64,000 nt of DNA, from sequence record NC_052655.1. One strand, given 5' to 3'. Origin of the DNA: Escherichia phage alia. Below the pieces are notes generated by a model. That model was not told the origin of the DNA. It searched no databases and saw only the letters and a list, made by a program, of their open reading frames with translations. The translations under genes and the position numbers were made by a program. Below, piece by piece: positions 8,156-10,744 of the stretch (position 1 is its first letter; the number at the start of each line of letters is the position of its first letter).

Positions 8156-8707
8156 ATGCAAAACATCGATCTTACTTGGATAGAAGCCAAAGAAGCAATG
8201 TTAAAAGGCAAACGCGTTAAACATAAATACTTTTGCGAAGGAGAATGGTTTGAAATGCGTAACCGATCCATTGTAGATGAAAAAGGGAATGACATGCAAC
8301 AATGGTTCAAAAATGAAATTTGGCAGGGAACAGGTTGGTCTGTAGTTGAAGAGCAGCCTAGCTCAAGCGCACTGTTTAGCCCTATTATGTATCGCGTTAT
8401 CGGTGCTTTAGTTGTTGATCACGGGATTGCAGTGGAAAAAGAATGCTGGGAAGAGGTATCTTTTTTCAACCTGGCTTCTTATGCAAAAAGCCATATGCAC
8501 TTGTTTGAAGAAGGGGATGAATTTGTTCTTCGTATGCGATATGGCAAAGAATTCAGATTACCACTTGATAATGATGTAGACACTGTTGTAAAATGGTTAG
8601 CAGAGCATTACGCTTACGATGCAATTTGTGGTCGCAGCTTCGGCAACGAACGCTGGGACATGATTTGTGAAAAATATGATTTTGAGCCGGAGTACGGAGT
8701 TTTATAA
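8156..8707 (+). CDS. hypothetical protein, N-terminus tentatively DUF2829-like
   Basis: Track ORF trimmed to Met34 (GAGGAG RBS); N-terminal LTWIEAKEAMLKGKRVKHKYF pattern recalled from DUF2829 family, from memory only. Confidence 0.5.
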   Translation: MQNIDLTWIEAKEAMLKGKRVKHKYFCEGEWFEMRNRSIVDEKGNDMQQWFKNEIWQGTGWSVVEEQPSSSALFSPIMYRVIGALVVDHGIAVEKECWEEVSFFNLASYAKSHMHLFEEGDEFVLRMRYGKEFRLPLDNDVDTVVKWLAEHYAYDAICGRSFGNERWDMICEKYDFEPEYGVL

Positions 8708-8958
8708 TGTTAAGTATCAAACCTAAAATGATAACAGAAGACGAAGCAGACTTTATTTTCAAATGTGGACGTGTATGGAGAGAATTCACAAAAGGGAATG
8801 AAGTGGTTGTTGTTGTCGAACACAAGATATCTATCCAGGATCTGTTTGGACAATATGTTGATGTTATTAAATTAGGTATTGACAAGGGTTTAGTTGAGGT
8901 GTTAACATTAGATCAAGTTGAAGCAGAGCACCTCGATAAAGTGGTGGTTGAATTTTAA
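8707..8958 (+). CDS. hypothetical protein
   Basis: Track ORF 83 aa; start overlaps upstream stop. Confidence 0.5.
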   Translation: MLSIKPKMITEDEADFIFKCGRVWREFTKGNEVVVVVEHKISIQDLFGQYVDVIKLGIDKGLVEVLTLDQVEAEHLDKVVVEF

Positions 8959-8978
8959 AATACAGACGGGAGAAAGGT

Positions 8979-9152
8979 ATGAGTTTCTTTGTTACAGTAT
9001 TTATGGCTATCTGGATTGTAGTCTCACTCGTTCTTTTCCTGGTGGGTTGTCTGGAAGAGATTAAGAAAGCGGTTATTTGCGGTTTCTTTGGCTTTATTAT
9101 CTCTCCTGCCTGGATGTGGTTCTTCATTATGATTGGTTTCCTTAAAAGGTAA
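8979..9152 (+). CDS. small membrane protein (57 aa, two hydrophobic helices)
   Basis: Hand-called ORF MSFFVTVFMAIWIVVSLVLFLVG..; GGGAGAAAGG RBS; below track cut-off. Confidence 0.45.
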   Translation: MSFFVTVFMAIWIVVSLVLFLVGCLEEIKKAVICGFFGFIISPAWMWFFIMIGFLKR

Positions 9153-9166
9153 GTGAGGAATAAAGA

Positions 9167-9604
9167 ATGAGTAAAACAAACGCAATTACAGATAAAGCAA
9201 CTGATGTACTTCTGAACATGGTTAACGTCACTATTCAAACAATGAGTGATGTTGTAGAGTTTGGAAAACAACAAATTCCAGAAGTAATTCATCAATTATT
9301 AATGTGGAAAGCAGTATCCGCAGGTTTATGGCAATTTTTTGGTATTTGCTTTATGTTTATTGCTTTTATTGCTGTGCGGAACCTCATAAAAGCAATTAAA
9401 GATAAAGAATGCCTGTGGTCACGAGATCGCTATGGTGGAGTATCTGCTTTGCCTATTGTTGGTCTTGTTGTCTCTGCTTTCTTTTTCCTTTTAGGATTTA
9501 TTATTTTCTTTTCGAATTTCGATTGGCTAAAAATTATTATTGCACCAAAAGTGTATCTGATTGAATTTGCTGCTGATTTAATTCGTTCATCTCAACAAAG
9601 ATAA
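9167..9604 (+). CDS. membrane protein
   Basis: Track ORF 145 aa; hydrophobic segments; GTGAGGAA RBS. Confidence 0.55.
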   Translation: MSKTNAITDKATDVLLNMVNVTIQTMSDVVEFGKQQIPEVIHQLLMWKAVSAGLWQFFGICFMFIAFIAVRNLIKAIKDKECLWSRDRYGGVSALPIVGLVVSAFFFLLGFIIFFSNFDWLKIIIAPKVYLIEFAADLIRSSQQR

Positions 9605-9616
9605 AAAGGGGTTAAA

Positions 9617-10744
9617 ATGAAATACACTATTTATGGTGATATTGTAAGTGTAAATAAAGATATGGGCGTGGAATCTAACTATCTTCCACCTGGATTCTAT
9701 ACTGTTAGTCGTGATCCCCTTGGCAATTACTTTTTAAGCCGTGGTAATCTAACAGGTGTACCGGATGTTCTGTATGGTGAAACAGAAAAACGAGCAAATC
9801 ACGTTATTCGTACATTCCATCGCCGGAGTGCACAAGGTAAAAATACAGGTTTGCTCCTGACAGGAACTAAGGGCAGTGGTAAAACTATGTTAGCCAAACT
9901 CATTAGTCGTGACCTTGTAGAAGAAGGTATTCCAACTATTATGGTTACTCAAGCCTACAGTGATGCTAATTTCATTGAACTTATTAGCAAGATCACCGAC
10001 AAAGCAGTGATTATTTTTGACGAATTTGATAAAGTATATGAGAAGAAACAAGATCAAGAAGCACTTCTCACTTTGTTAGATGGTACTGGCAGTGGTAATA
10101 AACTGTTTATTCTAACTAAAAACAGTGGCTTTATCTCTGAATTCTTTCTAAATCGTCCTAGTCGTGTGTTTTATAATTTTAATTATGATAAAATCTCACT
10201 AGAAACTATGATTGACTATTTAGATAAAAACCTGGATAACAAAGCACACTTTGATAATTTCCAAAGACTTTGGGATGTAAGTTTAGAGTTGTCCTTTGAT
10301 GTGATCCAAGGTATAGTAGAAGAACTTAATTTCTACCCTGATTTATCCTTTAAAGAATGCATCTCTATGATGGGCGTTTCTTTAGGTGGTGGTAATAAAT
10401 GGGATATTAGCAGTGTTGTTATTAATGGAAAACTTCAGAAAGTTAGCTGGGTATCTAGTTGGCATAACTTCACACCTGCAATCTTTTTAGGTGGTTCGTG
10501 CACACTGGACGTGTACTTGTCATCTCCAAGTGATGCAGACTCTAAAGAAGCCCTTGCTAATAGCTCTTACGTGGTTTTTGATGATGAAGGCGATGCTCGA
10601 ATTCCATTGAATGCGACAAAAATGAAAGCAGATCTTATTACAGGCGGTAAAATCGTTGTGTTTAGTGATGATCCAGAAGATTCTTTCCGTATTGTTCTGG
10701 AACCAACTATCACCAATGGTGCAACTTTGGCAAGTGTGTTTTAA
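9617..10744 (+). CDS. AAA+ family ATPase
   Basis: Walker A GTKGSGKT, Walker B IIFDEFD; 375 aa. Confidence 0.7.
   Translation: MKYTIYGDIVSVNKDMGVESNYLPPGFYTVSRDPLGNYFLSRGNLTGVPDVLYGETEKRANHVIRTFHRRSAQGKNTGLLLTGTKGSGKTMLAKLISRDLVEEGIPTIMVTQAYSDANFIELISKITDKAVIIFDEFDKVYEKKQDQEALLTLLDGTGSGNKLFILTKNSGFISEFFLNRPSRVFYNFNYDKISLETMIDYLDKNLDNKAHFDNFQRLWDVSLELSFDVIQGIVEELNFYPDLSFKECISMMGVSLGGGNKWDISSVVINGKLQKVSWVSSWHNFTPAIFLGGSCTLDVYLSSPSDADSKEALANSSYVVFDDEGDARIPLNATKMKADLITGGKIVVFSDDPEDSFRIVLEPTITNGATLASVF

What the first reader, a model, noticed from the sequence alone, without database searches (positions are those of the whole stretch)
8156..10744. Operon of an unknown 183-aa protein, two small membrane proteins and an AAA+ ATPase
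Five co-directional genes from a single promoter (8096-8123) end at a strong terminator (10763-10786). The first protein has an N-terminus that I tentatively match to the DUF2829 family, to which the Thoeris anti-defence protein Tad2 belongs. Two predicted membrane proteins (57 and 145 aa) and an AAA+ ATPase with a long C-terminal domain follow. The combination resembles compact superinfection-exclusion or defence/anti-defence modules more than replication or morphogenesis genes.
Basis: inference. Interest (0 to 1): 0.45.

Follow-up and report, generated by a model that had tools for sequence, protein, structure and literature searches.

The report
Phage early operon with mini-Tad2 domain
This is a real five-gene early operon of a phi92-like E. 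coli phage. Its first protein starts with a stripped-down copy of the Tad2 anti-immunity fold, but the five genes are a mosaic of independently mobile accessory genes, not one machine.

Summary
Window 8156-10744 holds five co-directional genes, Phi92_gp217-221 of a Justusliebigvirus myovirus. A sigma70-type promoter lies upstream (8096-8123) and a hairpin terminator downstream (10760-10781).

gp219 and gp220 are two-helix membrane proteins. gp221 is a classical-clade AAA ATPase with intact catalytic motifs and no protease domain.

The "compact module" reading is not supported. Relatives of gp217-220 accompany the ATPase in only the 4 closest of 80 diverse ATPase loci, and the ATPase's neighbours are not enriched for membrane proteins. 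The gp220 family lives mostly in ATPase-less temperate phages. The gp217 fusion is absent from some sister phages.

Interest is moderate: a testable anti-defence lead plus a large uncharacterised phage AAA family.

The parts
8096..8123 (+). Sigma70-type early promoter: TTGACA, 16 nt, TAATCT, with TG(C) extended -10. It lies in the 119-bp divergent intergenic region.
   Evidence: Read. The motif TTGACA-N15-18-TAnnnT is enriched 34 versus 5.4 expected in the window, and this site is listed. It was not called by the generic scanner because the -10 is weak.
8156..8350 (+). gp217 N-domain (residues 1-65): a minimal Tad2/DUF2829-like core, with helix alpha1 followed by a small antiparallel sheet.
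8372..8707 (+). gp217 C-domain (residues 73-183, phrog_11295): a lineage-specific alpha/beta domain of unknown function. It is a separate ORF in Phapecoctavirus, KP2025 and some Justusliebigvirus.
   Evidence: PHROG hit at 2.9e-50. Separate ORFs are seen in L003, L009, L010, L014 and L015. The model is poor (pLDDT 58-73) and gives no credible fold match.
8707..8958 (+). gp218: an 83-aa acidic soluble protein (phrog_4868). Its start overlaps the gp217 stop (TAATG). It follows the gp217 C-domain gene in all related lineages, directly except in KP2025, where an 80-aa ORF intervenes.
8879..8908 (+). Possible internal promoter (TTGACA, 18 nt, TAACAT, with TG) inside the 3' end of gp218, 70 nt upstream of gp219.
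   Evidence: It is a consensus match only and has not been tested.
8979..9152 (+). gp219: a 57-aa two-helix membrane hairpin (phrog_22950). By sequence it is found only in Justusliebigvirus. Other lineages carry unrelated 53-58-aa membrane proteins (two predicted TM helices, one in PsgM04F's 53-aa ORF) in the same block.
   Evidence: Hydropathy. Distribution.
9167..9604 (+). gp220: a 145-aa protein with two transmembrane helices (about residues 52-70 and 97-115) after a roughly 50-residue N-terminal segment (phrog_3054). It belongs to a mobile family found in early regions of lambdoid, P22-like, N4-like and Vibrio phages.
9617..10744 (+). gp221: a classical-clade AAA ATPase (phrog_2376). It has an N-terminal beta domain (about residues 1-55), an AAA core plus lid (about 56-255) and a variable beta-rich C-domain (about 256-375). 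Motifs: Walker A G83-T90, Walker B D135/E136, sensor-1 N169, Arg fingers R180/R183, pore-loop aromatic Y114.
10760..10790 (+). Intrinsic terminator: a 9-bp stem (AAAACCCGC / GCGGGTTTT) with a 4-nt loop, then a T-rich tail. The flanking A and T runs make it potentially bidirectional.

Best explanation
The region is a host-RNA-polymerase (sigma70) transcribed early operon of a phi92-like myovirus. It strings together independently evolving accessory, host-takeover-type genes. It is not a dedicated multi-component system.

(1) gp217 is a recent fusion of two domains. The first is a minimal Tad2/DUF2829-like core (residues 1-65). The second is a lineage-specific C-domain that normally travels with gp218. 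The core keeps helix alpha1, the small sheet and the two aromatic 'sandwich' positions (F26 and W50). It has lost the central insertion and the polar residues that hold gcADPR. By inference, it most likely acts as a small binder or sponge for a different nucleotide-like signal or a structured RNA, so it is an anti-defence candidate rather than a canonical anti-Thoeris Tad2.

(2) gp219 and gp220 are small inner-membrane proteins made early. gp220 belongs to a family that sits in the early accessory regions of temperate phages, next to sieB. By inference, they modify the envelope or membrane of the infected cell, for example by superinfection exclusion or host-physiology control.

(3) gp221 is an autonomous classical AAA ATPase with a complete catalytic set and an aromatic pore loop. 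By inference it forms a hexamer that remodels or unfolds a protein substrate recognised by its N- or C-terminal beta domains. Its conservation as a lone gene in many large virulent phages of Gram-negative and Gram-positive hosts points to a general role in infection, not to a motor for the neighbouring membrane proteins.

Shown: gene structure, promoter and terminator motifs, fold and family assignments, and phylogenetic distribution. Inferred: all biochemical activities.
For: Genes and signals.

Tad2-like core:
- hhalign 93.9%, E 1.5e-7, and a 63-column end-to-end alignment with a roughly 25-residue deletion.
- 5 of 33 family members give weak PF11195 hits.
- SptTad2 is one of only two PDB profile hits.
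- Ligand residues come from the Tad2 paper. The mapping is F26 to W25, C27 to N26, W50 to W73, N53 to S76 and I55 to D79.

Mosaic nature:
- The N- and C-domains are separate genes in Phapecoctavirus, KP2025 and some Justusliebigvirus.
- gp219 and gp220 are replaced by unrelated small membrane or secreted proteins in Phapecoctavirus.
- The gp220 family occurs in 169 phage records, mostly 40-70 kb phages that were not among the ATPase hits. It lies after N and next to sieB in HK633 and SPN9CC, and in the N4-like early region.
- Relatives of genes 1-4 accompany the ATPase in only 4 of 80 ATPase loci.
- Membrane proteins are not enriched next to the ATPase.

ATPase:
- PF00004 above its cut-off.
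- Invariant Walker A and B, N169, R180 and R183.
- Aromatic residue at position 114 in 84 of 102 sequences.
- Best profile match is p97 D2, 2.3e-13.
- At least 473 loci in IMG/VR, and homologs in jumbo, Felix-like, Herelleviridae and Lactococcus 949 phages.
Against: - The five genes are tightly packed and co-transcribed. The order C-domain, gp218, small membrane or secreted proteins, ATPase is kept across Stephanstirmvirinae-like phages. A lineage-specific functional link therefore cannot be excluded. Genome collinearity within a subfamily explains this order equally well.
- One distant phage, Aeromonas 4_4572, has a gp217-N-like gene 1.3 kb upstream of its ATPase.
- No experiment or publication addresses any of these genes.
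- All activities are inferred.
Confidence: 0.6

Rival explanations
1. One reading: the five genes form one compact superinfection-exclusion or defence/anti-defence module. In it, the AAA ATPase powers or regulates the two membrane proteins, and the Tad2-like protein supplies signal sensing or sequestration.
For: The genes form a single transcription unit with tight spacing and translational coupling. The block order is conserved within Stephanstirmvirinae-like phages. The gp220 family neighbours sieB in P22-like phages. The N-domain has a Tad2-like fold.
Against: Outside the 4 closest of 80 ATPase loci, no relative of genes 1-4 accompanies the ATPase. The ATPase's neighbours are membrane proteins in only 8 of 71 (upstream) and 14 of 75 (downstream) loci. 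gp219 is genus-specific, and gp220 is swapped for a signal-peptide protein in Phapecoctavirus. The gp220 family thrives without the ATPase. PADLOC finds no defence-system match. The gp217 fusion is polymorphic.
Confidence: 0.15
2. gp217 is a functional Tad2: a tetrameric sponge that sequesters the Thoeris signal (gcADPR or His-ADPR) and lets the phage escape Thoeris.
For: Fold match to ModTad2 and AcrIIA7. Profile homology to PF11195. The two tryptophans that sandwich the ligand in SPO1 Tad2 (W25 and W73) correspond to invariant F26 and near-invariant W50.
Against: N26, S76 and D79 are the polar ligand contacts, and the corresponding positions are invariant or nearly so in the genuine family. 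They align with C27, N53 and I55, which are variable in the gp217-N family. The central insertion, which carries helix alpha2 of the dimer interface, is deleted. The Pfam model does not hit gp217. The domain is fused to another domain, unlike stand-alone Tad2.
Confidence: 0.12
3. gp221 is a DNA-replication AAA+ protein (helicase loader, clamp loader or initiator), as some GenBank records label its homologs ('replicative helicase', 'DnaC', 'replication factor C'). On this view the operon is part of the replication programme.
Confidence: 0.08
4. gp221 is an FtsH-like membrane protease or Zn metalloprotease, as annotated in Paula, JLBYU50 and PaulScherrer.
Against: The sequence contains no HExxH motif (read). 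No Peptidase_M41 or any other Pfam hit is found in the C-terminal 126 residues, even at E<=10. No transmembrane segment is predicted. The C-domain is beta-rich, not what a helical M41 protease domain would give.
Confidence: 0.02

Closest known systems
Tad2 / DUF2829 (Pfam PF11195 'Tad2-like'): SPO1 Tad2 (8SME), ModTad2 (9EIB), SptTad2 (8WJD), AcrIIA7 (8KBI)
   Same: The gp217 N-domain has the same order of elements: an N-terminal helix followed by a small antiparallel sheet. It superposes at 1.7 A over 57 residues. The N-terminal motif 'xxEAxxAMxxGKRVxH' parallels 'FGxALEALKxGKKVxR', and the C-terminal 'GW-hydrophobic-hydrophobic-E' parallels 'DWxIVE'. Aromatic residues are kept at the two ligand-sandwich positions. 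Both are encoded in phage early or accessory regions.
   Different: The core is about 64 residues against 86-104. The central insertion, which is AcrIIA7's 'extended domain' and Tad2's beta2-beta3 loop with helix alpha2, is missing. Polar contacts N26, S76 and D79 are not conserved. It falls below the Pfam threshold. In this phage it is fused to a 110-residue C-domain. Oligomeric state and ligand are unknown.
Classical-clade AAA ATPases (p97/Cdc48 D2, NSF D2, Bcs1, bacterial Trip13 of CBASS, FtsH AAA module)
   Different: It has a single AAA module flanked by a roughly 55-residue N-terminal beta domain and a roughly 120-residue beta-rich C-domain that match no known domain. Sequence identity to any solved AAA is only 10-22%. 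The pore-loop glycine is Asp in this phage. There is no protease, TM or adaptor domain. The family is phage-restricted, with at least 473 IMG/VR loci.
Early accessory membrane proteins of temperate phages, in the PL-operon region between N/sieB and cIII-kil-erf of lambdoid and P22-like phages
   Same: gp220 is 28-36% identical over more than 90% of its length to unnamed proteins at that position in HK633, SPN9CC and HK639. All are small, have two TM helices and are expressed early.
   Different: None of these relatives has a known function. There is no similarity to SieA, SieB, Imm, Sp or other characterised exclusion proteins in Pfam, PHROGs, NCBIfam or PADLOC.

Membership tests
Tad2 / DUF2829 (PF11195) | Match to the Pfam family HMM at or above the gathering score | tested here: not met
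   gp217 gives no Pfam family at E<=1. Among 33 N-domain relatives, 5 give sub-threshold PF11195 hits, the best at E 0.0028.
Tad2 / DUF2829 (PF11195) | Core fold (helix alpha1 plus antiparallel sheet) superposable on solved Tad2 or AcrIIA7 | tested here: met
Tad2 / DUF2829 (PF11195) | Profile-profile sequence homology to genuine family members | tested here: met
   hhalign of the gp217-N family (30 sequences) against a PF11195 alignment (58 sequences) gives 93.9% probability and E 1.5e-7 over 29 columns. A greedier run gives 93.2% and E 2.9e-7 over 63 columns end to end.
Tad2 / DUF2829 (PF11195) | Central insertion (beta2-beta3 loop with helix alpha2, or the 'extended domain') that forms the V-shaped dimer interface | tested here: not met
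   There is a roughly 25-residue gap in the alignment at that position. The domain is about 64 residues against 86-104, and the model has no helix between beta2 and beta3.
Tad2 / DUF2829 (PF11195) | Ligand-binding residues (SPO1 numbering W25, N26, W73, S76, D79) | tested here: not met
   The aromatic positions are kept: F26 is invariant and W50 is present in at least 90% of sequences. The polar positions align with C27, N53 and I55, which vary within the gp217-N family. The corresponding positions are invariant or nearly so in the genuine family.
Tad2 / DUF2829 (PF11195) | Homotetramer that binds gcADPR or His-ADPR and inhibits Thoeris | not testable with these tools
   This needs SEC-MALS, ligand-binding assays and plaque assays.
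Classical AAA ATPase (PF00004) | Family HMM match above the gathering score | tested here: met
   PF00004 scores 38.9 bits against a cut-off of 21.2, E 1.5e-9.
Classical AAA ATPase (PF00004) | Walker A, Walker B, sensor-1 Asn and a second region of homology with arginine fingers | tested here: met
   G83, G86, G88, K89, D135, E136, N169, R180 and R183 are invariant in 102 homologs. The motif aligns with p97 'RPGR'.
Classical AAA ATPase (PF00004) | Pore-loop-1 motif (aromatic, then one residue, then Gly) for substrate threading | tested here: inconclusive
   Position 114 is aromatic in 84 of 102 sequences (Y in this phage). Position 116 is Gly in 78 of 102 but Asp here.
Classical AAA ATPase (PF00004) | Ring hexamer with ATPase activity | not testable with these tools
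   Only a monomer model was possible.
FtsH-like protease (as annotated in some records) | C-terminal M41 Zn-protease domain (HExxH) and N-terminal membrane anchor | tested here: not met
   The sequence has no HExxH motif and no TM segment. The C-terminal 126 residues give no Pfam family at E<=10.
Replication AAA+ (clamp loader, DnaC or DnaA clade) | Family HMM above cut-off and a conserved sensor-2 arginine in the lid | tested here: not met
   NCBIfam Hda scores 29.8 bits against 194.8, and the DnaC-like model PRK08116 scores 27.5 against 189. No invariant Arg is present in the lid. The best profile match is p97 D2.
Known anti-phage defence or superinfection-exclusion proteins | Sequence match to a described defence or exclusion protein family | tested here: not met
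   PADLOC gives nothing for genes 1-4 and only generic P-loop hits at E>=8.5e-4 for gp221. PHROG families for genes 1-4 are all 'unknown function'. Pfam and NCBIfam give no significant hits.

The most novel reading that the evidence does not exclude
The roughly 60-residue gp217-N family (phrog_3474/22208) is stand-alone in many Klebsiella, Erwinia, Salmonella and Escherichia phages and fused here. It could be a previously unrecognised minimal branch of the Tad2 sponge superfamily that has been re-tooled for a different immune messenger or a structured RNA.

Separately, the gp221 family has at least 473 viral loci, is often embedded in phage tRNA arrays and has a paralog in the same genome. It could be a phage-encoded protein unfoldase that dismantles a host factor or defence complex.

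Either would be a new anti-defence mechanism class for large virulent phages.
Probability: 0.15. Interest if true: 0.7.

Novelty: new variant of a known kind. Interest (0 to 1): 0.35.

Why it matters
Three points make this worth following up.

1. Tad2-type sponges are among the most widespread phage counter-defence proteins. A stripped-down core that current Pfam-based annotation misses, and that is common in enterobacterial phages, would extend the family. It would also give a cheap candidate to screen for binding of new immune messengers.

2. The AAA ATPase family is large, restricted to phages and completely uncharacterised. Classical-clade AAA remodellers are unusual in phages (my own knowledge, not tested here). 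Its substrate could reveal a new host-takeover step.

3. Public records carry contradictory labels for gp221: 'FtsH-like protease', 'Zn metalloprotease', 'replicative helicase' and 'RFC'. The evidence here does not support any of them.

On the ordinary side, the operon itself is a typical mosaic early-gene block. It is not a new multi-gene system.

Tried and rejected
- The word-index homolog search for gp217 found only its own cluster. It was replaced by the exhaustive HMMER search.
- Foldseek against PDB with the whole gp217 model gave no significant hit. This is reported as a negative result, not explained away. A likely cause is that a short domain, broken by a 25-45-residue insertion in the targets, sits inside a half-disordered query.
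- Direct phmmer of gp217 against PDB gave only chance hits.
- PADLOC, and Pfam and PDB searches on the ATPase end domains, gave nothing.
- phmmer hits of gp221 residues 201-291 to the influenza NS1 effector domain (E about 1e-3) were judged spurious. They lie in the AAA lid and did not appear among the profile-search hits at E<=1e-6.
- The weak PHROG hit of gp220 to 'Ace-like minor head protein' (E 0.0058) was not pursued.
- Literature searches for any functional data on phi92 gp217-221 or bas60_0105-0109 found none. Ksap2, the Avs2 trigger of Bas60, is a different gene, Bas60_220.
- An ATPase paralog was looked for in the window and not found. It lies about 15 kb away, outside the window.
- The tRNA-neighbourhood idea for the ATPase was sampled (14 of 60 loci). 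It could not be tested against a background.
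Full report
**What the window is.** The 3-kb region is 98-98.6% identical to Escherichia phages inny, Nernie, VEcB, PaulScherrer (Bas60), Paula and phi92. These belong to genus Justusliebigvirus, subfamily Stephanstirmvirinae. Public records annotate the five genes as Phi92_gp217-221 / PAULA_0101-0097 / bas60_0105-0109. All are 'hypothetical' except the last, which is variously called 'ATPase', 'putative ATPase or Zn metalloprotease' or 'FtsH-like protease'.

**Checking the observation.**
Each has a Shine-Dalgarno-like sequence, and the spacings are -1, 20, 14 and 12 nt.
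- Transcription switches direction in the 119-bp gap 8037-8155, where GC skew also flips sign.
- The proposed promoter is TTGACA (8096-8101), 16 nt, TAATCT (8118-8123), with a TG extended -10. The generic scan missed it because the -10 hexamer matches only 3 of 6 positions.
- The pattern TTGACA-N15-18-TAnnnT occurs 34 times in the window against 5.4 expected, with 0 of 100 shuffles reaching 34. Most sites are on the coding strand ahead of small genes, and 8096 is one of them. This phage therefore uses consensus -35 host-type promoters for its early genes.
- A second such site (8879-8908) lies inside gene 2, upstream of gene 3. An internal start is possible.
- The terminator hairpin at 10760-10781 folds at -16.9 kcal/mol, z = -2.76. 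Paula annotates it as a terminator on both strands.

**gp217 (183 aa).** It gives no Pfam, NCBIfam or PADLOC hit and no PDB sequence hit. PHROGs split it into two parts: residues 1-69 (phrog_3474/22208) and 73-182 (phrog_11295).
- tblastn and an exhaustive HMMER search show the two halves are independent domains.
- The N-half is a widespread stand-alone protein of about 60-65 aa in Klebsiella, Erwinia, Salmonella, Citrobacter and Escherichia phages. It is also fused to other C-termini.
- The C-half is a separate 111-112-aa ORF in Phapecoctavirus, Klebsiella phage KP2025 and Pseudomonas phage PsgM04F.
- In those phages the N-domain sits on another protein on the opposite strand across the divergent promoter.
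- Even within Justusliebigvirus, genomes with a 100% identical ATPase (L014, L015) have the unfused arrangement. The fusion is therefore recent.

**Testing the DUF2829 idea.** Five lines of evidence bear on it.
1. Scanning 33 N-domain relatives individually against Pfam makes PF11195 'Tad2-like' the only recurrent family: 5 members, best E 0.0028, all sub-threshold.
2. A profile of the family against PDB sequences lists SptTad2 (8WJD) as one of only two hits, at a non-significant E of 1.6.
4. I built a genuine PF11195 alignment of 58 sequences, all carrying the precomputed PF11195 label, and a trimmed gp217-N alignment of 30 sequences. hhalign gives 93.9% probability and E 1.5e-7 over the first 29 columns. 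With a greedier setting it gives 93.2% and E 2.9e-7 over 63 columns, running end to end through both families.
5. Against this, Foldseek with the whole model found nothing, with a best E of 0.15.

I conclude with about 0.8 confidence that the N-domain is a remote homolog of the Tad2/DUF2829 core.

**What the domain lacks.**
- The end-to-end alignment has a roughly 25-residue gap between strands 2 and 3.
- In Tad2 that region is the loop with helix alpha2, which makes the V-shaped dimer. In AcrIIA7 it is the 'extended domain'.
- SPO1 Tad2 holds 1''-3' gcADPR with W25, N26, W73 and D79. It also uses T78, I63 and T65, and water-mediated contacts through D67, H71 and S76.
- The corresponding positions in the genuine family alignment are invariant or nearly so (W24, N25, W72, S75 and D78).
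- In the gp217-N family the aromatic positions are kept. F26 is the only invariant residue, and W50 is present in at least 90% of sequences.
- N26, S76 and D79 align with C27, N53 and I55, which vary within the family. The family has its own conserved 'E-x-W-Q' motif instead.
- A canonical gcADPR sponge is therefore unlikely.
- A binder of another ligand, or of RNA as shown for AcrIIA7, is plausible but untested.

**gp218, gp219 and gp220.**
- gp218 (83 aa, acidic, soluble) overlaps the gp217 stop codon. It follows the C-domain gene in every related lineage, directly except in KP2025, where an 80-aa ORF intervenes. By inference it is a partner of that domain.
- gp219 (57 aa) is a two-helix hydrophobic hairpin found only in Justusliebigvirus.
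- In Phapecoctavirus, unrelated 53-58-aa membrane proteins and a 118-119-aa signal-peptide protein occupy the block.
- gp220 (145 aa, two TM helices) is conserved at 42% in KP2025.
- Its wider family covers 169 phage records, mostly 40-70 kb temperate or sipho-type, N4-like and Vibrio phages. None of these was among the ATPase hits.
- In HK633 and SPN9CC the gp220 relative lies in the early-left operon. It comes just after N and next to sieB, and before cIII-kil-erf.
- In an N4-like phage it lies in the early region.
- gp220 therefore belongs to a mobile family of accessory membrane proteins that sit in early regions. Its function is unknown.

**gp221 (375 aa).**
- PF00004 scores above its cut-off.
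- The AF2 model is confident (pLDDT 90.9). It shows an N-terminal beta domain (about residues 1-45), a helix at 56-72, the AAA core and lid (to about 255) and a beta-rich C-domain.
- In 102 homologs the Walker A, Walker B (D135 and E136), sensor-1 N169 and both arginines of 'NRP[GS]R' (R180 and R183) are invariant.
- Position 114 is aromatic in 84 of 102 sequences.
- No lid arginine is invariant.
- The family profile matches p97/Cdc48 D2 best, at 2.3e-13.
- There is no HExxH motif, no TM segment and no Pfam or PDB hit for the end domains. The 'protease' labels are unfounded, and the 'helicase', 'DnaC' and 'RFC' labels are unsupported: those matches fall far below curated cut-offs.
- The family is large and viral. 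It has at least 473 confirmed IMG/VR loci. Homologs occur in Phapecoctavirus (64%), jumbo phages such as CBB (38-40%) and SE131 and Aeromonas phages (36-40%). They also occur in Herelleviridae, Bacillus, Staphylococcus, Enterococcus and Lactobacillus phages and Lactococcus 949, at 25-33%.
- phi92-like genomes carry a second paralog (47% identity) about 15 kb away, outside this window.

**Is it one system?** The evidence says no.
- Beyond the subfamily, the ATPase's neighbours are unrelated.
- HMM and phmmer searches of all ORFs in 80 diverse ATPase loci find relatives of gp217-N, gp217-C, gp218, gp219 or gp220 only in the four closest loci.
- The gene immediately upstream of the ATPase has a hydrophobic segment in 8 of 71 loci, and the gene downstream in 14 of 75.
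- Overall, 15-18% of flanking genes are membrane proteins, so there is no enrichment.
- The conserved order within Stephanstirmvirinae-like phages (C-domain, gp218, small membrane or secreted proteins, ATPase, Zn-ribbon 'endonuclease') is what genome collinearity within a subfamily would give.
- The best reading is a mosaic early operon of independent accessory genes.

**Novelty and score.**
- The genes are already in GenBank as hypotheticals. I found no functional study.
- What is new is the assignment of the gp217 N-domain, and the widespread small-protein family it represents, to a minimal Tad2-like core that Pfam does not capture.
- Also new are a cleaner classification of gp221 and the correction of its annotations.
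- This is a new variant of a known kind, with moderate interest (0.35).
- It yields testable leads rather than a surprising mechanism.

Noticed in passing
L004 872-958 and 4755-4829; L005 1129-1201; L007 2287-2360; L008 726-800; L076, L037, L041, L028, L040: Homologs of the gp221 ATPase often lie beside or inside phage tRNA arrays, always co-directional. This was seen in 4 of 6 annotated distant phages and 14 of 60 IMG/VR loci within +-5 kb. In L076 the ATPase sits among 20 tRNAs. In L028 and L040 ARAGORN calls a tRNA-Met plus a tmRNA-like gene directly upstream. The window itself has no tRNA. No background comparison was possible.
   Followed up: partly
L021 and L023 5001-5756 (IMG/VR contigs of phi92-like phages); outside the window: phi92-like genomes encode a second paralog of the AAA ATPase (47% identity over residues 3-256) about 15 kb from gp221, on the opposite strand. 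This explains the '2 places per record' in the tblastn search.
   Followed up: partly
window 7096-8036 (minus strand) versus L003 530-2002, L009 875-2049, L010 658-2112: The homologs of the leftward genes gp214-216 are co-directional with the ATPase in Phapecoctavirus, KP2025 and PsgM04F. An inversion around the divergent promoter therefore separates those genomes from phi92-type genomes. This rearrangement coincides with the fusion of the Tad2-like N-domain to the C-domain in gp217.
   Followed up: partly
window 14218-23690, + strand: A dense run of about 20 consensus TTGACA-N15-18-TAnnnT promoter-like sites lies ahead of small genes. The whole window has 34 against 5.4 expected. This looks like an array of individually promoted early genes.
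   Followed up: no
window 10819-12216 and 12217-12768: Two genes lie directly downstream of the terminator. The first is a 465-aa protein with repeated CxxC zinc-ribbon-like units, annotated 'endonuclease' in relatives. The second is a 183-aa YbiA-like protein (Bas60 annotation 'putative YbiA-like N-glycosidase'). No promoter-like site was found between the terminator and the first gene, so expression may depend on read-through.
   Followed up: no
L008 1208-1708 (Aeromonas phage 4_4572): A 166-aa protein has a gp217-N-like N-terminus (MSGYLSHDKALEMMKRGAKVAHSSFTSDEYLY...). It lies 1.3 kb upstream of that phage's ATPase homolog. This is the only co-occurrence of the two families seen outside Stephanstirmvirinae-like phages.
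   Followed up: no
P0128 (5991 aa), P0147 (521 aa), P0138 (175 aa): Part of the gp217-N domain (residues about 26-53 in P0128, about 6-40 in P0147) matches 15 and 7 repeated stretches in two large proteins, and the whole domain is duplicated in P0138. The hairpin may be a repeat-forming unit in other contexts.
   Followed up: no
records MG065639, MG065645, MG065656, MG065689: Several GenBank records labelled 'Campylobacter phage' with host Campylobacter jejuni are 98% identical to these E. coli phi92-like phages over the whole region. The host labels look doubtful.
   Followed up: no
L011 3001-3357 (HK633), L012 2995-3360 (SPN9CC): The gp220-like membrane protein of lambdoid and P22-like phages sits in the early-left operon. 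It lies between N/sieB and cIII-kil-erf, a classic accessory-gene ('moron') region. In HK633 the annotated ORFs (HK633_045 and 044) only partly cover the tblastn match, which suggests a mis-annotated or disrupted gene there.
   Followed up: no
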